Assembly: GCA_041752095.1 (NCBI GenBank)
Contig: JBGSHQ010000108.1
Location: 1-38,199, forward strand
Source of the DNA: Bdellovibrionia bacterium
Lineage (GTDB): Bacteria > Bdellovibrionota > UBA1018
Length of the DNA: 38,199 nucleotides
Direction of reading: 5' to 3'
Part shown: positions 2,567 to 18,300 of the stretch, piece after piece
How the letters are laid out: the number at the start of each line of letters is the position of its first letter
Position numbering within the stretch: position 1 is the stretch's first letter
Translations under genes and position numbers: made by a program
Notes under the pieces: generated by a model
Databases searched by the model: none
Seen by the model: the letters and a program-made list of their open reading frames with translations, nothing else
Told to the model about the DNA's origin: nothing

Positions 2567-3079
2567 TTATTCGCCGAGACCAATTATCCGTTTCTGTGGA
2601 ACCGAATGCTCTGAAACGAGTTCTCGAATGGCATCAAAAACCATTTGAAACTGTCCATCGTATTTTGATTCAAGCTCATTGATCCGTTTTTCGAGCGCTG
2701 AGTTCGAAATCAGGACCGCTTTCATTTGCACGAAAGTACGCATGATGGCGATATTCACTTCGATGGCTCTTCGGCTATTAAGGACTGAAGAAAGCATCGC
2801 AATACCTTGTTCAGTGAAAGCAAGAGGTGGCTTTCTACTTCCTCCCCACCCTAAACTTGAAGTCACAAACTGTGACTTCAAGTTTCTAACCTCTTGATTA
2901 GTTAGGGAAAACATAAAGTCCGGAGGGAAGCGATAATGATTCCTCCTGACCTGCTGATTTAACCCCTTTGTAGGCATCTGATAAAGCTCAGCTAGATCAA
3001 AATCGAGCATCACTTTTTGGCCACGGATTAAATAGATTTTCGAAGCAACATTCTCATCTTCATTTTTTCTTATTTTCAT
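2567..3079 (-). CDS. ORF6N (KilA-N-related) DNA-binding domain protein
   Basis: N-terminus IYLIRGQKVMLDFDLAELYQMPTKGLNQQVRRNHYRFPPDFMFSLTNQE matches the characteristic ORF6N pattern (IRG..VMLD.DLA.LY...TK.LN..V.RN..RFP.DFMF.LT). Confidence 0.85.
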   Translation of the reverse strand: MKIRKNEDENVASKIYLIRGQKVMLDFDLAELYQMPTKGLNQQVRRNHYRFPPDFMFSLTNQEVRNLKSQFVTSSLGWGGSRKPPLAFTEQGIAMLSSVLNSRRAIEVNIAIMRTFVQMKAVLISNSALEKRINELESKYDGQFQMVFDAIRELVSEHSVPQKRIIGLGE

Positions 3080-5431: not shown

Positions 5432-7861
5432 ATGGCTTATTCGCACAAGACAGTCGAGGCAAAGTGGCAAAAATTTTGGGATGAAACGCAGGTTTTTAAA
5501 TCGACTCTCGATCCAAATAAACCGAAATACTACGTCCTCGACATGTTTCCGTATCCCTCTGGCTCGGGTCTCCACGTCGGTCACCCCGAAGGCTACACTG
5601 CGACTGATATTCTCGCGCGCTATAAGCGGACAAAGGGTTTCAGCGTTCTTCACCCGATGGGATGGGATGCGTTTGGCCTCCCTGCAGAACAACATGCAAT
5701 TCAAACCGGGACTCATCCTGCGATTACAACGAAACAGGCGATTGAAAATTTTCGTCGACAGTTAAAGATGCTCGGGTTCTCCTACGACTGGACTCGAGAA
5801 ATTTCTACGGCAGAGCCAAGCTACTATAAGTGGACACAGTGGATTTTTAAGCGCCTCTACGAAAAGGGCCTCGCCTACCAAAAAGAAGTACCTGTGAACT
5901 GGTGCCCGGCTCTTAAGACGGTTCTCGCAAATGAAGAAGTCGTCGATGGAAAATCTGAGCGCGGCGGACATCCTGTCTTCCGCCAGCCGATGAAACAGTG
6001 GATGTTAAAAATCACTGACTACGCTGAACGTTTAATTAAAGATCTCGATGGACTCCAGTGGCCCGAGGGAACGAAAGAGCTTCAGCGGAACTGGATCGGG
6101 AAGAGTGAAGGACTACAAACACGGTTTAACGTGTTTGGGTCTGAGAAAAATATCGAAATTTTTACAACCCGGCCCGATACCCTTTATGGCGCGACATTTC
6201 TTGTATTAGCACCTGAACATCCGATCGTGAATGAAATCACTACGAGTGATCGAAAATCAGAAATGGATGAATACGTAATCACATCTGCACGAAAATCAGA
6301 AATTGCTCGCCAAGAGCAAACTAAAGTTAAAACAGGTGTTTTCACAGGTTCCTACGCCATTAATCCAGCAAACGAAGCTAAAATTCCGATCTGGGTCGCT
6401 GACTACGTGATGATGGGCTACGGAACGGGTGCGATCATGGCTGTTCCAGCACACGATGAACGGGATTATGAATTCGCAAAAACTTTTAGTCTACCAATCG
6501 TAGAAGTGGTCGTGCCTTTAGACGGTGTAAAAACCGACGGATGCTATTCCGGTGAAGGAAAATCAGTAAACTCAGGATCCCTTACTGGCCTTACGACTAG
6601 AGAGGCTAAAGCAAAAATAATTTCAGAGATTGAAAAAGAGGGTCGCGGTAAAAAAACCGTAAATTATAAACTCCGCGACTGGCTCTTCTCTCGCCAGCGC
6701 TACTGGGGCGAACCTTTTCCAATTATTCATCTCGATGACGGAACGAAAGCAGCACTTCCGGACGATATGCTCCCGGTTGCTCTACCCGATGTGAAATCTT
6801 ACGAACCGAGTGGAACGGGCGAGAGCCCGCTTGCCGGGGTTACGGAATGGCTTTACACGACGGATCCGAAGACTGGAAAAAAAGCACGTCGTGAAACCGA
6901 CACGATGCCGGGTTCCGCTGGATCGAGTTGGTACTTTCTTCGTTATGCGGATCCTAAAAATGATAAGGAGCCCTGGTCGAAGGAAGCTGAAAAATACTGG
7001 CTCCCAGTGGATCTTTATTTAGGTGGACCAGAGCATGCCGTAGGTCACCTGCTTTATGCTCGGTTTTGGACAAAGGTTTTATTCGATGCGGGACTCGTCA
7101 CTCATCACGAACCGTTTCAGCGGTTAGTTCACCAGGGAATGATCTTAGGTGAAGATGGCGAGAAGATGTCGAAGTCACGTGGAAATGTGATTAATCCTGA
7201 TGACGTCGTTAGCCAGTATGGCGCCGATACACTTCGTATTTACGAAATGTTCATGGGGCCTCTCGAGCAGGATAAACCGTGGAATACGACGGCAATTTCT
7301 GGAACGTATCGTTTCCTCATGCGTGCATGGCGAATTTTCGTCGATGAGGCAGCAGACGGGAGCGAATCGTTTATCGTGAAGGATGAACCGGCGAGCGATG
7401 AAGATCTTCGGATCACGCATAAGACGATCCAAAAGGTGACCGAAGATATCGAAAATTTACGGTTTAATACCGCGATCTCCCAGATGATGATTTTCGTGAA
7501 TCACTTCACGAAAGAACCCCGTAAACCACGTGCGTGTTTAAAACCGTTCGTACAGCTTCTTCACCCGTTCGCTCCGCATATTGCGGAAGAGTTATGGGAG
7601 AAGTTAGGAGAAAAATCTCTTCTTTCGTATGCGGAATGGCCAAAGTTTGATCCGGCTTATGTTCGCGAGGATTCAGTCACCATCGCGATTCAGGTTTTAG
7701 GGAAGACACGCGGAACGGTCGAAGTTCCAGCGGGGTCCGATCAGGCTACGGTCGAAAAAGCCGCTCGCGCGATCCCTCAGGTCGCTGCCCAGATGGAAGG
7801 GAAGACCGTGAAAAAGGTCATCTTCGTTCCGGGTAAGATTATGAATTTTGTGGTGGGATAA
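5432..7861 (+). CDS. leuS: Leucine--tRNA ligase
   Basis: ORF 5351..7861. ATG at 5432 gives the canonical MAYSHKTVEAKWQKFW start. HIGH-type motif PYPSGSGLHVGHPEGY and KMSKS motif are present. Confidence 0.97.
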   Translation: MAYSHKTVEAKWQKFWDETQVFKSTLDPNKPKYYVLDMFPYPSGSGLHVGHPEGYTATDILARYKRTKGFSVLHPMGWDAFGLPAEQHAIQTGTHPAITTKQAIENFRRQLKMLGFSYDWTREISTAEPSYYKWTQWIFKRLYEKGLAYQKEVPVNWCPALKTVLANEEVVDGKSERGGHPVFRQPMKQWMLKITDYAERLIKDLDGLQWPEGTKELQRNWIGKSEGLQTRFNVFGSEKNIEIFTTRPDTLYGATFLVLAPEHPIVNEITTSDRKSEMDEYVITSARKSEIARQEQTKVKTGVFTGSYAINPANEAKIPIWVADYVMMGYGTGAIMAVPAHDERDYEFAKTFSLPIVEVVVPLDGVKTDGCYSGEGKSVNSGSLTGLTTREAKAKIISEIEKEGRGKKTVNYKLRDWLFSRQRYWGEPFPIIHLDDGTKAALPDDMLPVALPDVKSYEPSGTGESPLAGVTEWLYTTDPKTGKKARRETDTMPGSAGSSWYFLRYADPKNDKEPWSKEAEKYWLPVDLYLGGPEHAVGHLLYARFWTKVLFDAGLVTHHEPFQRLVHQGMILGEDGEKMSKSRGNVINPDDVVSQYGADTLRIYEMFMGPLEQDKPWNTTAISGTYRFLMRAWRIFVDEAADGSESFIVKDEPASDEDLRITHKTIQKVTEDIENLRFNTAISQMMIFVNHFTKEPRKPRACLKPFVQLLHPFAPHIAEELWEKLGEKSLLSYAEWPKFDPAYVREDSVTIAIQVLGKTRGTVEVPAGSDQATVEKAARAIPQVAAQMEGKTVKKVIFVPGKIMNFVVG

Positions 7862-7862
7862 A

Positions 7863-7898
7863 CACACTCCGTAAGGAGTGTGGGATTCCTCGTTTTTT
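7863..7898 (+). terminator. Probable leuS terminator
   Basis: 8-bp stem CACACTCC (7863-7870) / GGAGTGTG (7875-7882) with a GTAA loop. The T6 run (7893-7898) starts 10 nt after the stem, so the geometry is imperfect. Confidence 0.5.
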
Positions 7899-7950
7899 AT
7901 CGCGTGTCAGCTTTTTTCGGACATTTTAGGGTATAAGTAAAATTCTTATT

Positions 7951-7990
7951 GAACTAAATCCTGAGTGATTTGATCAAAACACCTGTATCG
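7951..7990 (-). repeat. Copy A of a 3-copy intergenic element (core CGATACAGGTGTTTTGA, inverted orientation)
   Basis: The reverse complement of 7974-7990 is identical over 17 nt to 13019-13035 and 15173-15189. Flanking similarity continues (yyAAAT..TCAG..TTTAGT). It lies 62 nt downstream of the minus-strand GNAT gene. Confidence 0.85.
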
Positions 7991-8013
7991 CGCACTCAAT
8001 GTATCAAACAATC

Positions 8014-8033
8014 GACTTCGGCCAACCGAAGTG
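8014..8033 (-). terminator. Hairpin downstream of the GNAT gene
   Basis: ACTTCGG (8015-8021) / CCGAAGT (8026-8032) with loop CCAA. On the minus strand it is followed by CGATTGTTTGAT, a weak U-tract. Confidence 0.45.
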
Positions 8034-8051
8034 CCGAACTAAACTATTTTT

Positions 8052-8531
8052 CTACGGGGAAAGATCTGATCGCAGTAGTCCATAAACATACTCACTCGCA
8101 GGAATTCCATTCACAAGAAAATGTTCCCTGAGTAGTCCTTCGCGCTTATAGCCAACGCTTTCTAGAACTCGAATCGAATGGATATTGTTTTCATGTACGT
8201 ATGCGGAAATTTTTCGAACGCGTGTTTTTTCGAAAACTTCATGCGAAATCATTTTAACTGCTTTTTTCGCAATTCCCTTTGAGCGTCCTTCAGGCGCTAT
8301 TCCATATCCAATATCGAGGGTCAGCATTTTCTTATTCAAATTAAATAAGCTGATCCACCCGAGTTTGATTCCATCAACCTCTATAAACCACTGAAAAGAC
8401 TCAGCGGTTTCAAAACAGGAAAGATCAGAACTCGACTTCATCAGTCGTTCTCGAAGTTTTTCTATCTCTACCATTTCAAGGGGATTATACTTTTGGGTAA
8501 TCGGATCAGCTACTTTAAGAGCAAGATTCAT
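8052..8531 (-). CDS. GNAT-family N-acetyltransferase (RimJ/RimL-like)
   Basis: ORF 8052..8567. The C-terminal ENNIHSIRVLESVGYKREGLLREHFLVNG pattern is typical of the Acetyltransf_3/RimL group. ATG at 8531 forms an ATGA overlap with the upstream gene's stop, so I prefer that start. Confidence 0.85.
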   Translation of the reverse strand: MNLALKVADPITQKYNPLEMVEIEKLRERLMKSSSDLSCFETAESFQWFIEVDGIKLGWISLFNLNKKMLTLDIGYGIAPEGRSKGIAKKAVKMISHEVFEKTRVRKISAYVHENNIHSIRVLESVGYKREGLLREHFLVNGIPASEYVYGLLRSDLSP

Positions 8532-9724
8532 TTCACCGCTCGCCAAGAAGAAATAAATCTTTCCCACATGATCTCTGGTTCACCCGTGTATCCGATACTA
8601 AACCGAAGGAGTCCCTGAGAGAGTCCGATTTCCTTTTGCTGTTCCGCAGGAATTTCACTCGATGTGCTCTTCGCTGAACAGCTCATAAGTGTTCGCGAGA
8701 ATCCAAGAGAGACGGCGTAGAGCCCGAACTTCACGTCTTGTAACTTTTCCGCAAGTGCCTGCGCTCGCTCGGGAGTTCCACAGTCGACGGTCAGAATTCC
8801 ACCGAAACCATATCGCGCATCGATCACTTGGCGCGCAATCGCCGACTGCGGGTGTGACTTTAGAGACGGATAAATCACTGGAATTTTTTCTGCTTCCATT
8901 CGACCCGCTAGAAATTCTGCCATCTTTGAATGCGCTTGGATTCGAACCGCAAGATGATCCATTCGTAGATAAAGCTCATGCGCTACACGTGGATCCATCA
9001 CAGGTCCGGTAAGCATGACTGCACCGTGATTCACGTCGATGAGAGAAGCAATAAATTCTTCAGGCCCCGCGACAGCACCCGCGATAAAGTCGCTCGATCC
9101 TGAAATATACTTCGTGCAGGAGTGAATGACGATATCGGCTCCATGTTCGAGTGGACGAACCATAAGGGGCGTAAAAGTATTATCGATCACGAGTTTTAGG
9201 ACGTGCTTACGGCAGATTTTCGAAAGCCCACAGATATCGATGAGCGATAAGAGTGGATTACTGAGTGTCTCAGCGTAAATCACTTTTGTTTTTTTTGTGA
9301 TCGCCGCTTCGACCGCTTTTAGATCTGTCATTTCTACGAACGAAACATCGACTCCTCGCGAAGGGAGAAGGTTTTTAAAAAGTGCGTACGTCCCGCCGTA
9401 GACTGTGCGAGAGGAAATCAGATGACCGGGTTCACGAAAAAGTTGGTCGATCGTGCACGCAATCGCAGCCATTCCACTGGCCACTCCGAGCGCAGCAGGC
9501 GCACCCTCCATCGCAGCTAATTTTTTCCCGAAAATATTCACCGTCGGATTTGAATGACGGCTGTAGAGGTAGCACCCCTGGATCTCGCCTTGAAAGGTTC
9601 GCTCCATATCCTTCGGATCGAGAAAGGTCGAAGTCGCGGCCACGTCGATCACGGGAACGACCCCACCCTCTTCTCCAAAATGCTGAATATCGCGGATGGC
9701 CTGTTCGGGATGGGTGGGCTTCAT
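8528..9724 (-). CDS. Cys/Met-metabolism PLP-dependent enzyme (methionine gamma-lyase / cystathionine gamma-synthase family)
   Basis: YSRHSNPT, the DNTF motif and the PLP-lysine motif HSCTKYISGSSD are present. The ~398-aa size is typical of the family. Confidence 0.9.
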   Translation of the reverse strand: MKPTHPEQAIRDIQHFGEEGGVVPVIDVAATSTFLDPKDMERTFQGEIQGCYLYSRHSNPTVNIFGKKLAAMEGAPAALGVASGMAAIACTIDQLFREPGHLISSRTVYGGTYALFKNLLPSRGVDVSFVEMTDLKAVEAAITKKTKVIYAETLSNPLLSLIDICGLSKICRKHVLKLVIDNTFTPLMVRPLEHGADIVIHSCTKYISGSSDFIAGAVAGPEEFIASLIDVNHGAVMLTGPVMDPRVAHELYLRMDHLAVRIQAHSKMAEFLAGRMEAEKIPVIYPSLKSHPQSAIARQVIDARYGFGGILTVDCGTPERAQALAEKLQDVKFGLYAVSLGFSRTLMSCSAKSTSSEIPAEQQKEIGLSQGLLRFSIGYTGEPEIMWERFISSWRAVK

Positions 9725-9964
9725 GCCCTGGTTTTACCGCTCTCTGTATATATAGAGAAGGGTCTAGAACGATTGTTGAAATTATTAGGTTTTTCATGCC
9801 CCCACGACCCTTATGGGATTCTCCTTGTAATCTTAGATGCAACGCGTTAAAAACCAGCTGTAATTTACTTTTATCCACCTATTGCGGTTCTTGGGTGCGC
9901 AGATAACCGAAGGAATCGCAAACGGGTTTAGACTCGGAAACATTGGATTAAAGACGGAGAATTT

Positions 9965-10336
9965 ATGAAGACTATTTTTAGCTTGATGACGATGCTTCTG
10001 GCTCAATCTGTACTGGCAGATTGTTCGATTGTCAGCGCCGGTTCCTGGGATGAAGTAATCATGAAGGTTTCAGTCGATGGTGTCGAAGTGGCAGCAACCA
10101 AGTACGATCCTCTGGATCGGGCTGGGGAGCGCACCCAAGCGAAAGCGTACGCGAAAGTAAGCGATGAGCTGATTAAATTAGTTCAAACCGACAAATGTTC
10201 ATCTGGCGTCGTAGTCGAGACCTTTTGGTTCAGCACAACCCCATTTACCTGGTTTGAACAAACAGAATCAAAATCCAAGCGTCTGCAGGATTTGGCGGAA
10301 TTAAACGTAATCTACAAACGAAACGCGGGACTTTAA
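9965..10336 (+). CDS. Small secreted hypothetical protein (123 aa, 2 Cys)
   Basis: Signal peptide MKTIFSLMTMLLAQSVLA-DC. GGAG SD 6 nt upstream of the ATG. I recognise no family. Confidence 0.6.
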   Translation: MKTIFSLMTMLLAQSVLADCSIVSAGSWDEVIMKVSVDGVEVAATKYDPLDRAGERTQAKAYAKVSDELIKLVQTDKCSSGVVVETFWFSTTPFTWFEQTESKSKRLQDLAELNVIYKRNAGL

Positions 10337-10424
10337 CCCTGAATTAGCTCGCAACCACTGCGCGCATGAACAAAACATTTCGGCGCATGCCACGGACTAA
10401 AAAAAATTGGATTGAAAACAAAGT

Positions 10425-10922
10425 ATGAAAATAAAAATCGCAGCAATTGTAACCTTCTCCTTTATGGTCACTATTCATTCGGCAAATGCGTTCACCGCAT
10501 TTTGCTCACTCAATGAGAAGAAAAACTTCGTGGCTTACTCGAAAGCTGAATTCGAATGTACGACCGGTGGACGAGAATCCATTGGAACCTTAGAAATCGA
10601 CCTCGTGGGGATCGACGCTCAGATTCGATATGATGGAAGAGCACCCGTCGACGAGGAAGGACGGCAAGCTATGGGTACCGGTACGGCGGAAGGCCTTATA
10701 TTAACTTGCCCACTGGTTTCAAAAAAACGTCTCCACAAAGTAATCAACAAGCGGGGTTTTTGGGGAGGTGTTGGTTTAATGGCCGGTGCTGGAGTAATTG
10801 GTTCGGTTAAGGCCGGAGTCGGATTCAATCATCGGGGAGCTGCTTGTCTAATTATGGGCGGATCCGTTGTTGTACTACCGGAAGTGGCAGCTGGTTTCGT
10901 CCGATTTAAAATTTCGTATTAA
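10425..10922 (+). CDS. Secreted hypothetical protein with a C-terminal glycine-zipper-like segment (165 aa)
   Basis: Signal peptide ...TIHSANA-FT. C-terminal GFWGGVGLMAGAGVIGSVKAGVGFNHRGAACLIMGG resembles GxxxG glycine-zipper membrane-inserting segments. Confidence 0.6.
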   Translation: MKIKIAAIVTFSFMVTIHSANAFTAFCSLNEKKNFVAYSKAEFECTTGGRESIGTLEIDLVGIDAQIRYDGRAPVDEEGRQAMGTGTAEGLILTCPLVSKKRLHKVINKRGFWGGVGLMAGAGVIGSVKAGVGFNHRGAACLIMGGSVVVLPEVAAGFVRFKISY

Positions 10923-10943
10923 TGAATATCAGGAGAATTAATT

Positions 10944-11369
10944 ATGAAACTTCTAATCGTCTTATTAAGTCTTACAGCACTACCAGCACAGGCTGAACAA
11001 ACTCGGATTACGGTCCGAGGAGTTGCTGCAACCGCCATCATGGATTCGTTTACCTATGGTGAACACTTTAATCCTCCCTATCATCACGATAACGAAATTT
11101 ACTGTAAGGCTAAAGAACCGCGTGGATCTCGCTCCTTCGGATACGCGAGTTGTACGAATAACTCATGGTTCGATAATGGAACTAAGAATGCTTTTAACTT
11201 TACACTCGCTTTAATCGAGGCTCTTCCGATTGATCTTCAGCAAAAACTCGTCGTTTCACGAGAAGATCAACGCAATGGATATACGATGAGCATAGAGGTT
11301 AAGTCTCTCGTCTGTAACCGCTCACGCAGTCGCGTGCCGGATCAATGCGATATCGTTGTCGATCTTTAA
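10944..11369 (+). CDS. Small secreted hypothetical protein (141 aa, 4 Cys)
   Basis: Signal peptide MKLLIVLLSLTALPAQA-EQ. AGGAGA SD upstream. Confidence 0.6.
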   Translation: MKLLIVLLSLTALPAQAEQTRITVRGVAATAIMDSFTYGEHFNPPYHHDNEIYCKAKEPRGSRSFGYASCTNNSWFDNGTKNAFNFTLALIEALPIDLQQKLVVSREDQRNGYTMSIEVKSLVCNRSRSRVPDQCDIVVDL

Positions 11370-11377
11370 TTCTAAAA

Positions 11378-11491
11378 ATGAAATTTTTCCTGTTATTAAC
11401 AGCACTATCGTTTCTTCCGAGCATCAGTTTTGCGATTACGGGAACAAATGTAAAAACACCGGATGAAACTTTAATTGGAATGCGCCGTTAA
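11378..11491 (+). CDS. Candidate 37-aa mini-ORF: signal peptide plus an 18-residue tail (or an N-terminal gene remnant)
   Basis: Below the ORF-track cutoff. Hand translation: MKFFLLLTALSFLPSISFA-ITGTNVKTPDETLIGMRR. It starts 9 nt after the stop of the preceding gene. Confidence 0.3.
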   Translation: MKFFLLLTALSFLPSISFAITGTNVKTPDETLIGMRR

Positions 11492-11543
11492 ACAAAGAAT
11501 TGCGGCGAGATAGATTGAATTAAAACATTGGATTGAGAGTCTT

Positions 11544-12035
11544 ATGCGTTTCCCGATGCGATTGATGATCTTCCTGCTTTTGTCTTCAATAGCCACGACC
11601 TCGTTCGGCGCACCTACCCGACTGGAGTGCGAAGAAATCGTAATGAGCGGACGACGTTTAGGCAGCAATCTTTTTGGAAGAGCATTTACTAGTAACGCCC
11701 CTAAAGAAGAAGGCGTGGCATTGCTCCGGTTGCTCGATCGAGTCGACGAATATTCTTTGCGTGAAATCGGCGCATCCGTCACCCCGTGGGAACTTTCGCT
11801 GATCCCTCATTTAAGGACTCGACAAGAAGGTTTATACGCTCAGATCGCTAAACTTTTCGATCGTTTTCGATTGGATGGTTTCGCTTCGAAATTCAGGCTG
11901 CCCGGTGGCGAATGGAGAGGTGCAAGACTTGCCGCCACTCGTGCCTTTTTAGACGGGAGCTTGGCATTCGATGGAGACTATTTTGAGAAAATGGCCGATC
12001 TTAGCGAACTCCGACATCCCCCGCATGGGAAATGA
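11544..12035 (+). CDS. Secreted hypothetical protein (163 aa), possibly the N-terminal part of a frameshifted larger gene
   Basis: Signal peptide MRFPMRLMIFLLLSSIATTSFG-AP. It ends 11 nt after the C5 tract at 12018-12022, and the +1 frame stays open for a further 310+ codons. Confidence 0.55.
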   Translation: MRFPMRLMIFLLLSSIATTSFGAPTRLECEEIVMSGRRLGSNLFGRAFTSNAPKEEGVALLRLLDRVDEYSLREIGASVTPWELSLIPHLRTRQEGLYAQIAKLFDRFRLDGFASKFRLPGGEWRGARLAATRAFLDGSLAFDGDYFEKMADLSELRHPPHGK

Positions 12036-12969
12036 ACTTGGATTGACGACGTTGATCCCCTCCATGTCGGCATGCACAATGTACGTGAAGTCCGATCGAG
12101 GCGAATGCACGGCTACGTTGAATTACGTGTTAAAAAAAATGAAACGTACCAACGAGCATGTTACCGCAGGTCCGTTCCTGGCGAAGATTTTGGCTGATCC
12201 GTCCTATGCCGATCCATTAAAAAAGGCGGCGAATAAGATCCTATCTAAGGCACTTTCGTATTCTGGGCCTTCGGGCGGTTTATTCGATGATATCTACCAA
12301 TCGTTCATCGAATGCGGTTTCTCGAGAGCAGATGCGACTGAGAAAACATGGTACTCTATCTTGCTCATCATGACGGACGGACCTAATCTCTTCGTGCTGT
12401 TTGATTGGGCTGATCGAGGCAACGCGATGACTTTATTTTCAGCTGCGATCATCGCTTCTGCGATCCCCGTCTTGAATAGCCTTACATTCGAAAGCGGGAG
12501 GCCGTACTCTTTTCCGGAGAGTTCGCACGTCACATGTGACACCGGAAAACCCTACCATTTTTGGGTCCCCGCGTTTTTAACGTATGCTTCGATCCAGGCA
12601 GGCTTCAAGGCGAGAGCGGCGATTCAGTCTGGTTATATTAGCGATGTCGGATACCAGATTTTCGCCACCGGATACGGACGAAAACCCTGGAAAACGTTTT
12701 CATCTGAATGGAACTCAACTGGAAACAATAAGACGAGATTGGATTTGGCTTATGCCGCCGCTGGCGCGCGTTTTGGCTTCAATCCAGCCGCAAACGGTCA
12801 AAACATCGATGCAAATTTCGACCGGCTGATGAAAGCAGGGAAAGTTATCGAGCCGTTAGCCGAACAAGATGCTTTGGATTTGACGAAAAATCCATTCCAC
12901 AAGCTAAAGATGGTGAAAAGATGGAATGCTATTTTTTCGCCGGATGTGCTGTTGGATGGAAACCACTGA
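12025..12969 (+). CDS. Hypothetical protein (about 300-315 aa, no signal peptide of its own)
   Basis: ORF 11971..12969. Candidate starts are ATG 12025 or ATG 12064, neither with an SD. The protein-like sequence includes GKPYHFWVPAFLTYASIQAGF. Confidence 0.6.
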   Translation: MGNELGLTTLIPSMSACTMYVKSDRGECTATLNYVLKKMKRTNEHVTAGPFLAKILADPSYADPLKKAANKILSKALSYSGPSGGLFDDIYQSFIECGFSRADATEKTWYSILLIMTDGPNLFVLFDWADRGNAMTLFSAAIIASAIPVLNSLTFESGRPYSFPESSHVTCDTGKPYHFWVPAFLTYASIQAGFKARAAIQSGYISDVGYQIFATGYGRKPWKTFSSEWNSTGNNKTRLDLAYAAAGARFGFNPAANGQNIDANFDRLMKAGKVIEPLAEQDALDLTKNPFHKLKMVKRWNAIFSPDVLLDGNH

Positions 12970-13011
12970 TTTCAAATTCCATTGATGAGCTATTAAGCAA
13001 AACTATCTAAA

Positions 13012-13057
13012 CTGTAGACGATACAGGTGTTTTGATTAAATCCGTCAGACTTTAAGT
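13012..13057 (+). repeat. Copy B of the 3-copy intergenic element
   Basis: CTGTAGA-CGATACAGGTGTTTTGA-TTAAATCCGTCAGACTTTAAGT. The core is 13019-13035, 50 nt after the stop at 12969. The 3' end overlaps the stop codon of the convergent STAS-like gene. Confidence 0.85.
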
Positions 13058-13324
13058 ACCTTGCTCCTGAATCGCCTTAAGAGATTCGATAACCGAAACG
13101 TTCTCAGTCGGTAAACACACCACGCGATCACGTCCAAACTCCGCATATAAGGCAGACAGGACTTCATCAAGCCATGATGGAGCCACTGCGAGTACGTCAG
13201 TGAAATCGAGCTCGATTTTCTCATTAGAGCCGATCTTAAAATAAGATTTAATCGTCAATGCAGCATCACGACCAGCCGGCCTTGAAGTTAAAATTTCGCC
13301 AAATTTTTTTATTTCAACTTTCAT
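13052..13324 (-). CDS. STAS-like domain protein (DUF4325-type)
   Basis: ORF 13052..13336. The pattern ...SRPAGRDAALTIKSYF...IELDFTDVLAVAPSWLDEVL fits the STAS-like/DUF4325 layout (ldF.gV..i..SF.DE). ATG at 13324 makes an ATGA overlap with the upstream ATPase stop. Confidence 0.7.
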   Translation of the reverse strand: MKVEIKKFGEILTSRPAGRDAALTIKSYFKIGSNEKIELDFTDVLAVAPSWLDEVLSALYAEFGRDRVVCLPTENVSVIESLKAIQEQGT

Positions 13325-14097
13325 GAGAGCCCCCACACTAACACGGTTACTGTGCCATGAACCGATTTGAAGTTTTTCTTCAGAAACTTCTCCGCCTTTT
13401 CTCCTAAATCACCGTAAGAAACGAAAGCCGTTCCGGATAAACACGCTAAACCACGATTTCCGGTTTCTGAAAAATTTCTACGCACGAACTTAAGACCATT
13501 TCCCCGCTGTTCAGGAGCCCGACCCGAAATAATTTTCTCAAACGCAGCATGGAGTGCAGTTTTTTCATCACTTAAAGAGGGATGCATGCGCGAAAGTGAA
13601 CGAAAAATTCCTTGGCCTCGATCCGCAACGCAAATCCAAAGTAGTTTTCCAGTTACTTGCGTTTCTACCCAACACCCGGGCACATCACGCCACTGCCCGA
13701 GATTATGATCGAAAGTATTATTTCCAATCTCCCCCACAGTAGAGATCACTAAGGGCAGCCACTCAGATGCCAAGCCTTGTTTCAGGAGAACTTTAAGTCT
13801 AGACAAGCGACCCGTGAAAACATCTCGCGATTCGCTTAAAAACTCCGACCGAATAGCGGAGGCGTTCTTTGCACTTACCCATTCAATCATCGAAGCGAAG
13901 TCAGGAACTCCCGCTAGAGTGTAGTAAGTCTGCGGGGCTGAACCCCGTACGACTAAAATCCCTTCAGCAACCAACTTCCTCAGATGGCGATGAACGGCTT
14001 GGGGCGATATTCCAAGATGGGTATGGAGTTCAACCGGCCGGGTTTTTCCATTTTTATCTATAATCTCAATTATTTGTGATCGAGTCGTTGTTTTAAT
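13321..14097 (-). CDS. Winged-HTH fused to a GHKL-type (RsbW/SpoIIAB-like) ATPase/kinase domain
   Basis: The ORF track starts at TTG 13974, but the frame stays open upstream to the TAA at 14109..14107. That extension encodes TTTRSQIIEIIDKNGKTRPVELHTHLGISPQAVHRHLRKLVAEGILVVRG, a clear wHTH. GHKL boxes: EIGNNTFDHN (N box), VADRGQGI (G1), GNGLKFV (G2). The start codon is uncertain (ATT 14097 or ATA 14103). Confidence 0.7.
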   Translation of the reverse strand: MKTTTRSQIIEIIDKNGKTRPVELHTHLGISPQAVHRHLRKLVAEGILVVRGSAPQTYYTLAGVPDFASMIEWVSAKNASAIRSEFLSESRDVFTGRLSRLKVLLKQGLASEWLPLVISTVGEIGNNTFDHNLGQWRDVPGCWVETQVTGKLLWICVADRGQGIFRSLSRMHPSLSDEKTALHAAFEKIISGRAPEQRGNGLKFVRRNFSETGNRGLACLSGTAFVSYGDLGEKAEKFLKKNFKSVHGTVTVLVWGLS

Positions 14098-14100
14098 ATT

Positions 14101-14128
14101 TATAGTTTATAGTAAACTATAAACTATA
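14101..14128. promoter_or_regulatory. Perfect 13-bp inverted repeat (candidate operator)
   Basis: TATAGTTTATAGT-AA-ACTATAAACTATA. It abuts the 5' end of the wHTH-ATPase reading frame and lies in the divergent intergenic region shared with the gene at 14237. A further TTTATAG half-site follows at about 14141-14147. Confidence 0.5.
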
Positions 14129-14236
14129 GCAATTATGATATTTATAGATTTTAACAGCCTTGGGAATAGGCCTTGTACATTTTTACGCACTGCGCTAAAG
14201 GTTGGTCAAACATTACTTTCGATTTAAGGAGAATTT

Positions 14237-14659
14237 ATGAGTTTATTAAACCTGACTTGGACCCTGCTCGCACTCTCAACATCGGCATTAGCAGAACCCA
14301 GCACCATCTCGATTACCTGTAAAGATGGTAATAAAATCGTCGCGGAAGTCGTCGCCGATATCGAGACGGGCGAAAAAAATTCATTCATTCACTACGGCAA
14401 CGCTAAGCCAACATCACTTGTGATCACCCACCTCGAAGGTGATCCTGAGGCAATGAGAACAGAAAAAGCAATGCTTGAAGTTTACGCAAGTAATGAAAGT
14501 GAAACATCCACTGCACTCCTCACGCTTATGACCCCTAAGGGCAGCAAAAAAGTTACTGATAAAATTTCTACTGCAGGCGCCCTAGAATTCAATGATTCAA
14601 CAACGGATAAGCTCATAAAAATGGATGACCTCACCTGCGAAGTGAAAAACTCTAAATAG
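14237..14659 (+). CDS. Small secreted hypothetical protein (140 aa; Cys near the mature N-terminus and the C-terminus)
   Basis: Signal peptide ...LALSTSALA-EPSTISITC. C-terminus DDLTCEVKNSK. AAGGAGA SD upstream. Confidence 0.6.
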   Translation: MSLLNLTWTLLALSTSALAEPSTISITCKDGNKIVAEVVADIETGEKNSFIHYGNAKPTSLVITHLEGDPEAMRTEKAMLEVYASNESETSTALLTLMTPKGSKKVTDKISTAGALEFNDSTTDKLIKMDDLTCEVKNSK

Positions 14660-14700
14660 CGCGCAGGAAAAATGCATCGTTTTTCTAAAAGGATAAAAAA

Positions 14701-15117
14701 ATGAAAATCGCAATAATTATTATTTCAGCATTAATTTCGGCAGGTTCTTTAGCCAGTTTTAGCTCGAAAATTTACACATGCAGCGTAAACGACCTCCGCG
14801 AAGAAATCACGATCACCACTAACATGAATGCTGTTGGAGATATCACGAGTGATTATTTCACCATAAGCAGTCCAGGATTATTTTCAGAATTCGATAACCT
14901 CGACTTTGATCTCTCCGTCTGTGCTTACGATGGCATGTATGGAGACGAAAAACTTTCTACCGGAATGCACTGTGAAGGCCAATCTATCGGTGGTGGCTTC
15001 GACTTTAAATCGATTTTCAAAATCCAATCCAACGAAAAAAATCTCGGAAATAACCCAAAAACTTTCAAAGCAACGATCACGAACGGCGCAAAAAAATATT
15101 CCCTTGAATGTAAATAG
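14701..15117 (+). CDS. Small secreted hypothetical protein (138 aa; Cys near the mature N-terminus and penultimate residue)
   Basis: Signal peptide MKIAIIIISALISAGSLA-SFSSKIYTC. C-terminus KKYSLECK. Confidence 0.6.
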   Translation: MKIAIIIISALISAGSLASFSSKIYTCSVNDLREEITITTNMNAVGDITSDYFTISSPGLFSEFDNLDFDLSVCAYDGMYGDEKLSTGMHCEGQSIGGGFDFKSIFKIQSNEKNLGNNPKTFKATITNGAKKYSLECK

Positions 15118-15165
15118 CTCGTTAATAACCATTTACGGCGCACACAGGATAGCGAAGGATTTGAA

Positions 15166-15210
15166 CCTGTAGCGATACAGGTGTTTTGACTAAAATGATC
15201 GGTCTTTAGT
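15166..15210 (+). repeat. Copy C of the 3-copy intergenic element
   Basis: CCTGTAG-CGATACAGGTGTTTTGA-CTAAAATGATCGGTCTTTAGT. The core is 15173-15189, 56 nt after the stop at 15117. It is in direct orientation relative to copy B. Confidence 0.85.
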
Positions 15211-15347
15211 CCCTTATCTTCAAATTTCCCTGGAATGACTAAAAAATTAGGCATCTAAGCCACTGTTTTTATTGATCTTTAATAAAATACTCTATGGTGC
15301 GCGGAATAGATCGGTAACTAGAAAGCTCGCTTGCCCGTAAAGCTGCC

Positions 15348-18300
15348 ATGCGTTATAACGCGTCGTGGCCATCTGGCCTAAGGGGCGCTCATTTGATCAT
15401 CCGGCTTCCAATTTCATCACTCTTAATCCTATTCATTTCGACCTCTGCTCTCGCAAGCAGCGGTGCGGACGAATATCCAATGGCAATAAAGACGACTGGC
15501 GCACCTGCGATCGATCTCATGTACCAGGGAAAAGCAATCGACCGAGATGAAGCGACAGACATTGCAAAACGTGGCATCGATCTCTCCACTCTCGACTCCG
15601 CTCCACACGATCTTTGGAAACCTGTTTCACTCCCCCTCTCAAACGCTGAAAAATTTAATTACCCACCCGAAGGTGCGCAAGTCGTTTTCCAAAACGATGT
15701 CTCCCCAAAAGGAAATTACCGCGGTCAGGTCACCTACTACGGCCGCCCATTCCGTATCATCATCGATATGGATAACCACCAGTATTTAATGAACGCCGCG
15801 ATGATGCGGAAACTCGGCTACCCCGTCGACATGCCGAAACGTTATCAGCAACTTTCCATTCGGTTTACGAATATTAAAACGATGGAAGGATTCATCGACA
15901 ACTTCGCTTTCGAAACCGGCTTTAGCCGAGACGTTTGGTTAAAAGCCGTCGATGCAAAAAATCTAATCGTCACCCTTCAAGACGTAAACCTCGAATACCC
16001 CCGAATCGATGTTCCACAACTTTACGAAGGAAAGTTCGATACCGACTGGATCGCCGGACGAAGAGCCATGCGTGGCCTCATCATCCCACTCATGCTCCTC
16101 GATATCCGCCTTTCAGAAGACAGCGTAAATATTTTTCCATGGGAATTCTCACGGATTCTCGCTGAACACATCATGCTGAAATATACCGACGTCCAGTGGT
16201 TTAAAGAAACCACCTACGAGGATGCCCGGTGGGCAGCGCGAAAAATCTCCAAACTCACTAAAGAAGATCTCCGACTTATCGTCACAGAAGCTCGGCTTCC
16301 CGAAGACATCTCTGCACTCCTTCTAGAAAAAATCACAGCCCGAAGAAACCACATGGTGCAGATGTTTAACCTATCGGGAGAACTTCCCTCATCCGAAGTA
16401 AAATTACCGTACGTAACTGATCTCACTCTCGGACAAATAAAAAATGGTAAGGCCCTACAAGAAAAATATCCGGGCTATGCCCCCCGTTTCACATTCGGAG
16501 ATCCAAAGTCTCCCCTCGCGTGGAATGAAATTAAACACTATGTGCGCATGCAGGGTATCACGCTCGGAATTAACTACCTCGTCGATAAAGCAAATAAACA
16601 ACTCCAACTTTTCACTCCAAATCAGGGACTAGAAAATCATAAGCAAGATTTTTTAGATGCGATTACAAAACATTTTAAAGAAAAACCAACTGAACCTTAT
16701 GTCGTTCCACTCAAGCCTTGGGCTCAGCCCCTCGCTGGAGTTAATCTCAATGCTTCGCGCTCACTCGTAACAGGAACCTTCTTTGGATCTAACTCGAATA
16801 AAGCACAACTCGTCGACACGTTTAGTGTCGGAGCAAGTGTGGGAGTATTTGGTGGTATCGACGGAAACACTTACTTAAAGAATTTTGGATTTGGCGCGAG
16901 CGTAAACTACCAGAGGAACTACACCCACGTTCGTCCCCTCGTCGCTTCACTTGAAGAAGTAAAAAATGCGAGATGGTCGAGTCTATTCGTTCCTGGATTC
17001 ATGAAAGGGATGTCTAAAGTCCTTAAGTGGAAAATCATTAAAAAGAATTTCGATTTATTCCGCGAAAAATATTATGCGGCCCAAACCGAGTGGATTAAAA
17101 ATTATCCTACTTATAAAGTAAAGTTCGAACAGGACCAAAAAGAGTATGAAGTGACTCGTGCTCGAGTCTGTACCGAACAGGGATATCCACCACCCTATAA
17201 AGACTGCAACCTCGACGAAAAAATTTACCCATCACCCCACTTTCAAGAACAACTCGACACTCGTGCGCTCTACGCAGAGATTATAGGAACACCTCTCCCA
17301 GAAGGGCGTAGCTTACCGCCTTTCACTGACGAGGTGACCGAAGAAACAAAACCAGCAGTCCTTCCAGAAAATTTAGAAGACTCGATCGTCCTCAGCACAT
17401 TAAAAGAATTCTTAGCAGAAATTAAAGACGGTGAAGTATTCACCATTACCGACTCGTTCGTAAATCAGATCAGCCCACAGATTCGAATCCCCCTCACCAC
17501 ACTTATGGGAATGGGAGTAGTCGACCTCCTCGGATCTTCACTCTATAATAAAATTAATCCTTCAGTCGGTGTGAGCTTAACCGGTGAATATGCGATCGTA
17601 AAACGCCTCATGTTAATGCGTCACGGTGATCAGTTCGAAGTTTATGATAACCGAATGAAAACGCGTGCGTTTAGAGCTGGGGCAGATTTCACGGCCTGGA
17701 TCGAAATCGCTAAGATCGCTGCCCAAAAAAAGGGAGGTGACTCAAATACTGACGCTATGATGCTCGACCTCACATCCATCACCGATCAGGATAGAGCGAA
17801 TGATGAGAAGCTGGCAGGAGATCGTAAAAAAATTCTCCAAGCTCTATCAAGCCTTTTTATCCAAAATGAAACCGATGTGGCGAAAGCGGTTGCTCCTCCT
17901 TATGCCGTTCATAACGATCTTAAAGGAACCACAAAAACTGCAAAAGTTCTCATATGGAACTGGACGAATTATGCAGAAACGAACCGGGTAAAGGTTAAGC
18001 CCCCGGTCGATCTTCTAGGTCGTTATGATGCTGAAAAAGAAGCGCGGACCCTCTTTAGCGCTCGAAAAATGAATCTGAACGGAAAAAATCCCTATGGACT
18101 GGTAGGACAGGTGATTAACCGCGCACTCGGAGTGAATGGACTTCTCGATCCAGGTACGAACATGAATCCAGCAGGAAACTTTCTCGGAACATCGAACTGG
18201 AGTCAGGTGCGTGCTGAAGCCGAAGTGACTGAAGGCCGAGATTTTAGCCCGACCCTCACTTTCGAGGAACGCTATGCGGGTTGGTACCTAAAAAAAGATA

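What the first reader, a model, noticed from the sequence alone, without database searches (positions are those of the whole stretch)
7951..15210. Three copies of a ~40-nt element with a 17-nt identical core, each 50-62 nt downstream of a gene on the same strand
CGATACAGGTGTTTTGA occurs at 13019-13035 (+), at 15173-15189 (+), and as the reverse complement at 7974-7990. Degenerate similarity continues 3' of the core (yyAAAT..TC[A/G]G..yTTTAGT).
- Each copy follows a stop codon on its own strand: GNAT, the gene at 12025-12969, and the gene at 14701-15117.
- Copies B and C also share a 5' CTGTAG, which forms a 5-bp hairpin with TACAG of the core. Copy A lacks this arm, so conservation is of the sequence rather than of a terminator fold.
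- In copy A the core is part of a near-perfect 18-bp palindrome (GTGTTTTGATCAAATCAC).
- The three reading frames across the copies differ, so this is a nucleotide-level element.
- Copy A is inverted relative to B, with the CGATAC ends facing each other across 5 kb. B and C are direct repeats 2.15 kb apart.

Candidate roles are a recombination (att or cassette-type) site, a protein-binding site, or a family-specific 3'-UTR/terminator element.
Basis: seen in the sequence. Interest (0 to 1): 0.6.

Follow-up and report, generated by a model that had tools for sequence, protein, structure and literature searches.

The report
Hairpin repeat ending accessory gene cassettes
A roughly 45-base sequence (a small hairpin, a run of Ts and a conserved tail) recurs five times in this predatory-bacterium genome, each time just after a gene its closest relatives lack, so it is most likely a shared stop-signal module spread as a small repeat at the tail of newly acquired genes; a recombination role is not shown.

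Summary
The 17-mer CGATACAGGTGTTTTGA occurs exactly three times in the window, against 0.1 expected.

- **Copies.** The 3.1-Mb draft genome (an uncultured Bacteriovoracaceae/Bdellovibrio-like MAG) holds two more full copies. That makes five full copies, not hundreds.
- **Module.** The unit (M1) is about 45 nt: hairpin CCTGTA-GCGA-TACAGG, GTTTTGA, then an AT-rich tail with a TCAG/GTCGG motif.
- **Long form.** Three copies (A and two on other contigs) continue into a second repeat, M2 (AAATGTCCGAAAAAAGCTGACA; 19 genomic copies), giving a ~95-nt unit.
- **Position.** All five copies lie 28-87 nt after, and co-oriented with, a gene absent from seven or eight congeners. Long forms are ordered accessory gene, M1, M2, conserved backbone.
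- **Distribution.** M1-like elements occur in about 9 of 116 genomes of the order, 1-6 copies each, at non-orthologous sites beside unrelated genes.
- **Not found.** There is no recombinase in the window, no integron integrase in the genome and no M1-like sequence at the cassettes' 5' borders. The IS200-type transposase genes are not flanked by these repeats.

Best reading: a lineage-restricted mosaic intergenic repeat (REP/BIME-like in behaviour) whose hairpin plus T-run terminates accessory genes. A recombination-site role remains possible but unproven.

The parts
7905..7932 (-). M2 module of the long form at site A (ACCCTAAAATGTCCGAAAAAAGCTGACA). It faces the 3' end of leuS.
   Evidence: There are 19 copies in the genome within 4 mismatches. 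It holds the highest-copy 16-mers of the genome, 8 copies. In 15 of 19 copies a gene end lies on the 3' side.
7953..7990 (-). M1 copy A: core 7974-7990 plus tail TCAAATCACTCAGGATTTAGT. No left hairpin arm.
   Evidence: Covariance-model match at 7949-8001 with E = 3.6e-11.
8015..8032 (-). Hairpin repeat M4 (ACTTCGGTTGGCCGAAGT), terminator-like, directly after the GNAT gene.
   Evidence: Flagged by the terminator scan. The family ACTTCGGTTRRCCGAAGT has 8 further copies in the genome and is marked as a repeat.
8052..8531 (-). GNAT acetyltransferase gene, the accessory gene that precedes copy A. Its ATG overlaps the stop of the PLP gene (ATGA).
   Evidence: Pfam Acetyltransf_3 at 8.5e-16. Absent between leuS and the PLP gene in the congeners. 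The start overlap is read.
9965..12969 (+). Five small ORFan genes (123, 165, 141, 163 and 332 aa) that precede copy B.
   Evidence: No Pfam, NCBIfam or PADLOC family. No homologue at the syntenic locus of any of the seven congeners.
13012..13056 (+). M1 copy B: weak hairpin CTGTA-GACGA-TACAG, core 13019-13035, tail TTAAATCCGTCAGACTTTAAG. It lies between convergent genes.
   Evidence: Covariance-model E = 1.6e-12.
13052..15117 (.). Segment between B and C: a STAS-like DUF4325 gene and a 217-aa partner on the minus strand, and two small genes (140 and 138 aa) on the plus strand.
   Evidence: DUF4325 at 8.3e-08. The 217-aa gene is found in only 8 of 116 genomes of the order, never next to an M1-like element.
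15165..15211 (+). M1 copy C: hairpin ACCTGTA-GCGA-TACAGGT, GTTTTGA, and a second hairpin GACTAAA..TTTAGTC.
   Evidence: DNA fold -9.2 kcal/mol, z = -4.3. RNA fold -14.0 kcal/mol. Terminator-like. Covariance-model E = 2.4e-13.

Best explanation
M1 is a low-copy, lineage-restricted, modular intergenic repeat. Its first module is a 6-8 bp hairpin with a GCGA or TCGA loop followed by GTTTTGA. This most likely acts as the Rho-independent terminator and 3'-end hairpin of the accessory gene just upstream. Its second module is an AT-rich tail with a TCAG/GTCGG motif.

The unit has been copied between intergenic sites in two forms: a ~45-nt short form (B, C) and a ~95-nt long form fused to a second repeat, M2 (A, C115, C240). 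It persists at the tails of recently acquired genes, where it is harmless or useful. Together with M2, M3 and several palindrome families it forms mosaic repeat clusters comparable to BIMEs or NIMEs.

Shown: the repeat itself, its strictly intergenic position after co-oriented genes, the accessory nature of those genes, the hairpin plus T-run in three of five copies, the patchy non-orthologous distribution, and the absence of linked recombinases.

Inferred: that it terminates transcription, and that it spreads as a non-autonomous element or by recombination.
For: - **Real repeat, low copy.** Three exact copies in the window and five full copies in the genome. The genome is otherwise repeat-poor (maximum 16-mer copy number 8), and the window's only 16-mers with 3 or more copies lie at sites A, B and C.
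- **Terminator-like form.** Hairpin plus TTTT in B, C and E. Copy C is flagged as terminator-like, with fold z-scores of -4.3 and -3.6 for C and E.
- **Position.** All five copies lie 28-87 nt after a co-oriented stop codon.
- **Accessory neighbours.** The upstream genes are lineage-specific: GNAT and the 9.9-15.3 kb block, the 247-aa gene and the 159-aa gene.
- **Copied as units.** The long forms are 80-83% alike over about 90 nt. C433 holds an internally deleted version that keeps both ends.
- **Distribution.** The covariance model finds related elements in 10 of 116 genomes of the order including G000 (8 of 70 genera; 7 genomes at E <= 0.001), 1-6 per genome. One of the other nine (G032) matches only inside a coding gene. 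Sites are not orthologous and the neighbouring genes are unrelated. Several neighbours look like toxin-antitoxin or HTH genes from their N-terminal sequences; only one HTH gene was checked against Pfam.
- **Helix 1.** It is 85.6% paired across 28 distinct sequences, and three pairs show changes on both sides.
- **M2 behaviour.** M2 lies mostly between convergent gene ends, as REP-like repeats do.
Against: - Copies A and D lack the left arm and cannot form the terminator, yet keep the core perfectly. GNAT has its own hairpin at 8015-8032.
- The 17-19 nt core is 100% identical while the adjoining 20 nt are only about 55% alike. That looks like sequence-specific recognition, not a fold requirement.
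- The T-run is short (4 T).
- Helix 2 is only 57% paired.
- No transposase or other mobilising enzyme was identified. There are no terminal inverted repeats or target-site duplications around M1 units.
- The copy number is far below that of typical REP/BIME families.
- No transcript data could be consulted.
Confidence: 0.5

Rival explanations
1. M1 is a site-specific recombination site, att-like or cassette-type. Under this reading the identical 17-19 nt core is the crossover region. Accessory genes are inserted, excised or shuffled at it, and M2 copies would be the chromosomal landing pads, so that M1-M2 is the joint left after insertion.
For: - The core is perfectly identical and flanked by diverged arms, and it is kept even without the hairpin arm.
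- All five copies border DNA absent from congeners, and the long forms always read accessory gene, M1, M2, conserved backbone.
- B and C are direct repeats that bound a four-gene segment.
- The distribution across genera is patchy, beside accessory-type genes.
- An inverted M2 pair with GGCT on both sides flanks an XRE gene.
Against: - No recombinase or transposase lies in the window or on the small contigs carrying copies D and E.
- No integron integrase scores above the cut-off in the genome.
- No M1-like sequence lies at the 5' borders of the cassettes.
- M2 in the composites is not truncated relative to solo M2.
- About 55 nt of unmatched sequence lie between M2 and the point where homology with G004 resumes at site D.
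- The leuS/PLP orientation is the same as in congeners, so there is no A-B inversion.
- GNAT is translationally coupled to the PLP gene.
- Congeners gain different cargo at the same spots without M1.
Confidence: 0.2
2. M1 is a binding site for a trans-acting factor. The factor could be a DNA-binding regulator or nucleoid protein, or an RNA-binding protein acting on a shared 3'-UTR motif that co-regulates or stabilises accessory-gene transcripts.
For: - The right arm plus GTTTTGA is conserved at the sequence level independently of the fold (A, D), within G000 and in G001, G010 and L161.
- A TCAG/GTCGG motif is conserved at a fixed distance from it.
- In genus g3 the element has a conserved 5' extension with a -10-like TATAAT box, compatible with a tiny transcript.
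Against: - Sites are not at orthologous positions, and they lie after rather than before genes, often between convergent genes with nothing downstream to regulate.
- No Rfam family matches.
- No candidate factor was found.
- Only 1-6 sites exist per genome, and they are absent from most relatives.
Confidence: 0.15
3. The copies are functionless relics of a few duplication or gene-conversion events among intergenic regions. No role and no dedicated mobility mechanism is involved.
For: The copy number is very low. No mobilising enzyme, terminal repeats or target duplications were found.
Against: - The core is perfectly conserved next to diverged flanks.
- The same core occurs in a congener with only about 70% genome-wide nucleotide identity, and in another genus.
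- All five of five copies are co-oriented after accessory genes.
Confidence: 0.15

Closest known systems
REP sequences and BIMEs (bacterial interspersed mosaic elements) of enterobacteria
   Same: Short imperfect palindromes in extragenic DNA at gene 3' ends, often between convergent genes. They combine with other short motifs into mosaics: here M2-M1-M4 at 7905-8032, and M2-M3 pairs elsewhere. They can act as terminators or mRNA-stabilising hairpins (established knowledge).
   Different: There are 5-9 copies rather than hundreds. Two copies lack the palindrome. No GTAG-plus-palindrome layout is conserved across genomes. The Y1-transposase homologues are not flanked by the repeats.
REPINs mobilised by RAYT transposases (Bertels and Rainey 2011, PMC3116915; PMC3337134)
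   Same: Non-autonomous, species-specific short repeats that spread within a genome without coding capacity.
   Different: There are no inverted REP doublets and no RAYT flanked by the repeat. The distribution is patchy rather than vertically stable, and the population size is tiny.
Neisserial intergenic mosaic elements and Correia elements
   Same: Modular repeat blocks in variable intergenic regions next to accessory genes, with terminator or promoter side-effects (established knowledge).
   Different: M1 has no terminal inverted repeats or TA duplication, and there are no dRS3-type delimiters.
Integron attC sites / CALINs
   Same: A structured element placed 3' of promoter-less accessory genes (ORFans, a GNAT here; accessory-type genes in relatives). 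It is nearly identical within a species and marks cassette ends. B and C are direct repeats 2.15 kb apart.
   Different: There are no RYYYAAC/GTTRRRY boxes. M1 forms two small hairpins instead of one long imperfect palindrome of 57-141 nt. There is no array, the genes between B and C are in mixed orientation, and the genome has no integron integrase.
MITEs / mobile insertion cassettes
   Same: The long form behaves as a ~95-nt unit with conserved ends and an internally deleted derivative (C433). M2 occurs as inverted pairs around 130 bp (C355) and around an XRE gene (C13).
   Different: M1 units have no inverted termini and no target-site duplication. Solo M2 copies share nothing beyond about 36 nt. 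No parent IS was found.

Membership tests
REP / REPIN-RAYT | Short imperfect palindrome (20-40 nt) in extragenic DNA | tested here: inconclusive
   The hairpin is present in B, C and E and in most relatives. It is absent in A and D. All full copies are intergenic. The 16-mer hairpin alone also lies inside two ORFs.
REP / REPIN-RAYT | Tens to hundreds of copies per genome | tested here: not met
   Five full copies plus about four partial ones in 3.08 Mb.
REP / REPIN-RAYT | A RAYT (Y1 transposase) gene flanked by the repeats | tested here: not met
   Five PF01797 hits in the genome, none with M1, M2, M3 or any 3-or-more-copy 16-mer within 1.5 kb that belongs to these families.
REP / REPIN-RAYT | Inverted doublets (REPIN) forming a long hairpin | tested here: not met
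   No close inverted M1 pairs. A and B are 5 kb apart.
Integron attC | R'' RYYYAAC and R' GTTRRRY boxes at the ends of one imperfect palindrome of 57-141 nt | tested here: not met
   The sequence reads GTTTTGA / TCAAAAC. The element folds as two small hairpins.
Integron attC | Array of co-oriented cassettes, each ending in a site, next to intI/attI | tested here: not met
   Only B and C are in tandem. The five ORFs at 9965-12969 have no site between them. No integrase lies in the window. TIGR02249 scores at best 66.9 bits against a cut-off of 265.
MITE | Terminal inverted repeats and target-site duplication | tested here: not met
   The ends CGATACAGG... and ...GCTGACA are not inverted repeats. 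The flanks of A, D, E and C433 share no duplication.
Intrinsic (Rho-independent) terminator | G+C-containing stem-loop directly followed by a T-run, downstream of a gene on the same strand | tested here: inconclusive
Known RNA family (Rfam) | Match to a curated covariance model | tested here: not met
   No hit at gathering score in the window. No relevant hit at E <= 5 in 7800-15400.

The most novel reading that the evidence does not exclude
M1 and M2 are the two halves of the joint left by an undescribed, integrase-independent cassette-loading system of Bacteriovoracaceae. In this reading, single accessory genes that carry the M1 tail are inserted next to M2 'landing pads' in 3' intergenic DNA. 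The invariant 17-mer would be the sequence recognised and cut by a still unidentified trans-acting recombinase.
Probability: 0.12. Interest if true: 0.75.

Novelty: new variant of a known kind. Interest (0 to 1): 0.42.

Why it matters
Bdellovibrio-like predators have compact, repeat-poor genomes, and how they gain and lose small accessory genes at fixed hot spots is unknown. Here every full copy of one of the genome's few repeat families tags the tail of a lineage-specific gene. The same core recurs in other genera beside unrelated accessory genes. If the element only terminates transcription, it is a tidy example of a shared 3' module and of BIME-like mosaics outside the enterobacteria. If the invariant core is a recombination site, it would point to a new way of loading gene cassettes. 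In either case the 17-mer is a practical marker for variable DNA in these genomes.

Tried and rejected
- **Public genome scan with the 17-mer.** It returned 117 or more hits, about what chance predicts (my estimate is ~140). None share the tail except records that are G001 and G010 themselves.
- **Metagenome scan with the hairpin pattern.** Only one true relative turned up (L161). The rest lie in a Microcoleus coding region.
- **Viral contigs.** No hit.
- **Rfam.** Nothing.
- **A paralogous ORF family starting MPQSFAI after M2.** Rejected: the reading frames stop after 12-49 codons, so it is a nucleotide repeat, M3.
- **M2 as a promoter (sigma-70, sigma-54, sigma-28).** Rejected by eye: hexamer spacing is inconsistent, and most copies face gene ends.
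- **M2 as the end of a full-length IS.** Rejected: nothing is shared beyond about 36-50 nt.
- **RAYT association.** Rejected.
- **M1 travelling with the RsbW-like/DUF4325 pair.** Rejected: seven homologous loci lack it.
- **Shared gene families next to M1 copies.** None found. Three covariance-model hits in G032 and G036 lie inside a conserved gene and were set aside as coding.
- **M1-like sequence at cassette 5' borders.** It looked plausible by eye for D and E. It is not significant against 1,197 control upstream regions: the best case (E) has p = 0.024 before correction for 11 tests, and the covariance model gives E = 0.21.
- **A small conserved ORF across the g3 elements (MT..LLSRYR).** Rejected because of variable stops and lengths.
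- **Resemblances to dif, hix/gix, LexA, CsrA and IHF sites.** Recalled from memory and checked by eye. None fits in spacing or symmetry.
- **Covariation on the seven-sequence alignment.** None.


Full report
**Observation.** The 17-mer CGATACAGGTGTTTTGA is present exactly at 7974-7990 (-), 13019-13035 (+) and 15173-15189 (+). No further match appears even with three mismatches, and none of 100 dinucleotide-preserving shuffles gives three matches.
- B and C have a left arm CTGTAG that pairs with TACAG.
- A lacks that arm and carries the near-palindrome GTGTTTTGATCAAATCAC.
- All three continue into a degenerate tail, YYRAAW-N3-TYRG-N3-TTTA.

Each core lies 49-61 nt after the stop codon of a gene on its own strand. 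These genes are a GNAT acetyltransferase at 8052-8531, a 332-aa ORFan ending at 12969 and a 138-aa ORFan ending at 15117.

**The element in its own genome.** The window is contig C108 of a 3.08-Mb, 439-contig draft.
- Earlier notes of this scan call it Bdellovibrio-like.
- Two relatives that share the element are deposited as an uncultured Bacteriovoracaceae MAG and an Oligoflexia MAG.

The genome has one more exact copy (E, C240:1222) and one copy with a single mismatch (D, C115:3223). A doubtful match lies inside an ORF on C110. Copies A, D and E are alike over about 95 nt. After the M1 tail and a loosely conserved spacer they end in a second motif, M2 (CACCCnAAAATGTCCGAAAAAAGCTGACA).

**M2 and the other repeat families.**
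- M2 alone has 19 copies. One of them, on C433, is preceded by only the first 11 nt of M1, which looks like an internally deleted long form.
- M2 is in turn often followed, about 20 nt on, by a third repeat, M3 (..CAGAGCTTCGCCATCGGTGGGG, roughly 13 close copies). M3 is not a reading frame.
- The genome is very poor in repeats: no 16-mer occurs more than eight times, and M2 and M3 are at the top of the list.
- Several palindromes recur five to nine times, for example ACTTCGGTTRRCCGAAGT and ACTTCCAGCGCTGGAAGT.
- In the 38-kb window the only 16-mers with three or more genomic copies, apart from two isolated ones, lie at site A, at B and at C. At site A they are M2 (7903-7927), M1 (7973-7991) and the hairpin at 8015-8032.

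Site A is therefore a mosaic of three repeat families packed into the 190 nt between leuS and GNAT.

**Anatomy.** The left arm, where present, gives a 6-8 bp hairpin with a GCGA loop followed by GTTTTGA.
- For C and E this fold is far better than shuffles (z = -4.3 and -3.6).
- RNA fold energies are -14.0 and -12.5 kcal/mol.
- C is picked up by the terminator scan.
- B's hairpin is weak, and A and D have none.
- GNAT has its own terminator-like hairpin just before copy A.

A second helix in the tail (GACTAAA/TTTAGTC in C) is convincing only in some copies.

**Relatives.** Exact or one-mismatch cores occur in only 2 of the other 74 genomes of the family. G001 (same genus) has two exact copies and G010 (another genus) has three. 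There the core is the right half of a perfect palindrome, ACCTGTATCGATACAGGT, plus GTTTTGA.

A covariance model built from seven copies finds related elements in 10 of 116 genomes of the order including G000, in 8 of 70 genera, with one to six per genome. Seven of those genomes score at E <= 0.001. The search over the class (127 genomes) adds none.
- The hits keep GTTTTGA and a TCAG/GTCGG motif 8-9 nt further on.
- In an alignment of 28 distinct sequences fitted to the model, helix 1 is 85.6% paired. Three of its pairs change on both sides; for example, G080 reads CTCGTC/GACGAG in place of CCTGTA/TACAGG.
- Helix 2 is only 57% paired.
- Three weak hits in G032 and G036 lie inside a conserved gene and were discarded. 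This removes G032 from the list, so about nine genomes in total carry a credible element.
- The public genome, metagenome and viral scans added one true relative (L161) and otherwise chance or coding matches.
- No Rfam family matches.

**Context: every full copy follows an accessory gene.**
- *Site A.* In seven congeners leuS is followed by the Cys/Met PLP gene, or in G001 directly by the large secreted protein and subtilase. None has GNAT or any gene of the 9.9-15.3 kb block. The leuS-PLP gap is 58 nt in G008 and 89 nt in G006. It holds different cargo in G003 (a 243-aa secreted protein) and in G002 (two other genes).
- *Site D.* A conserved 136-aa gene and a conserved response regulator are separated by about 600-650 nt in four congeners and by about 100 nt in G004. 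In G000 a 247-aa ORFan followed by M1-M2 sits between them.
- *Site E.* The convergent 533-aa gene is conserved in all eight congeners. The 159-aa gene before M1-M2 has no counterpart.

In all three long forms the order is accessory gene, M1, M2, conserved backbone. M2 itself sits mostly between gene ends: 15 of 19 copies have a gene end on the 3' side.

In other genomes the M1-like elements lie at non-orthologous positions. Their neighbours are unrelated to each other. Several look like toxin-antitoxin, nucleotidyltransferase/HEPN or XRE regulator genes, judged from their N-terminal sequences only; one HTH gene was confirmed against Pfam.

**Tests of a recombination role.**
- No integrase, resolvase or transposase domain is found in any ORF of the window.
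- The best match to the integron-integrase model in the genome scores 66.9 bits against a cut-off of 265.
- Five weak IS200-type (Y1) transposase homologues exist, but none is flanked by M1, M2 or M3.
- The 217-aa partner of the DUF4325 gene has homologues in seven other genomes of the order, none with an M1-like element nearby.
- A by-eye resemblance between M1 and the 5' borders of cassettes D and E did not survive testing. Against 1,197 control upstream regions only E scores at all (p = 0.024, uncorrected for 11 tests), and the covariance model gives E = 0.21.
- GNAT overlaps the stop of the PLP gene (ATGA), so it is embedded in an operon and is not a free-standing cassette.
- The relative orientation of leuS and the PLP gene is as in congeners, so no A-B inversion is fixed.

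**Interpretation.** The facts fit best a small, lineage-restricted, modular repeat whose hairpin plus T-run terminates the accessory gene in front of it. It has been copied, as a 45-nt or a 95-nt unit, among permissive 3' intergenic sites. In behaviour this is close to REP/BIME or neisserial mosaic repeats. It does not qualify as a member of those families, nor of attC sites or MITEs (see the membership table).

Two facts are not explained by a mere terminator:
- The 17-19 nt core is perfectly identical next to a tail that is only about half conserved.
- The core is retained in the two copies that cannot form the hairpin.

Both facts, together with the five-of-five association with lineage-specific genes, keep alive the idea that the core is recognised by a protein, possibly a recombinase. 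I put the terminator/mosaic-repeat reading at 0.5, a recombination site at 0.2, another kind of binding site or RNA motif at 0.15 and functionless relics at 0.15.

**Novelty and interest.** No curated RNA family matches, and no paper found in the library describes such repeats in Bdellovibrio-like bacteria. Earlier notes of this scan report comparable small hairpin repeats at accessory-gene borders in other Bdellovibrio-like genomes. Those are unverified leads and were not used as evidence. The element is a new variant of a known kind (short intergenic mosaic repeats). Interest is moderate. It would rise sharply if junction reads or a cognate enzyme showed cassette recombination at the 17-mer.

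Noticed in passing
G000 contig C13:3269-3849 (own genome, outside the window): Two M2 copies in inverted orientation (about 34/36 identical by eye) flank a single XRE-type HTH gene. GGCT lies directly outside both ends, which looks like a mobile insertion cassette with a 4-bp target duplication. A second inverted M2 pair encloses only about 130 bp on C355:2166-2294.
   Followed up: partly
window 7862-8528 and the syntenic loci L149, L150, L151, L155: The gap between the convergent leuS and Cys/Met PLP genes is an insertion hot spot. It is 58 nt in G008 and 89 nt in G006. It holds a 243-aa secreted protein in G003, two other genes in G002, and GNAT plus three repeat modules here.
   Followed up: partly
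window 8528-8531: The GNAT start codon overlaps the stop codon of the PLP-enzyme gene (ATGA). The lineage-specific GNAT is therefore translationally coupled to a conserved gene.
   Followed up: no
own genome, e.g. C138:11184-11205, C109:10416-10437, C200:3917-3938: A third repeat family, M3 ((T/C)AACG or TGCCG + CAGAGCTTCGCCATCGGTGGGG, roughly 13 close copies). It often lies about 20 nt after M2. It mimics an ORF start (MPQSFAI..) but the frames are not conserved.
   Followed up: partly
own genome: C102:758, C114:1178, C168:1215, C218:1439, C394:8062; C369 (three copies), C359, C425, C438; window 8015-8032: Several perfect palindromes recur 5-9 times each in a genome where no 16-mer exceeds 8 copies. 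Examples are ACTTCCAGCGCTGGAAGT, ACTTCGGTTRRCCGAAGT and TTCGTTCTGCGCAGAACGAA. They form families of stereotyped hairpins of unknown origin.
   Followed up: no
own genome C64:2110 and C114:4858: The exact 16-mer hairpin CCTGTAGCGATACAGG also lies inside two apparently real ORFs. One, judged by eye, looks like a DUF2062-type membrane protein, where the 16-mer encodes PVAIQ. Chance expectation for a given 16-mer in this genome is about 0.001.
   Followed up: partly
G010 and G052 loci L178, L179, L189, L192, L195, L197, L205: In genus g3 the M1-like element carries a conserved 5' extension (..TATAATTTCAAACACATAAgnGATGACGCrcgc). A -10-like box lies about 35 nt before the hairpin, so this is possibly a tiny transcription unit. 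In G010:C242 the element lies about 375 nt from a tRNA-His gene.
   Followed up: partly
window 13052-13974: The DUF4325 (STAS-like) gene and its 217-aa partner form a pair found in only 8 of 116 genomes of the order. Neither gene matches PADLOC.
   Followed up: partly
window 2567-3079: An ORF6N (KilA-N-like, phage antirepressor-type) domain protein lies among housekeeping genes. It may be a remnant of a mobile element.
   Followed up: no
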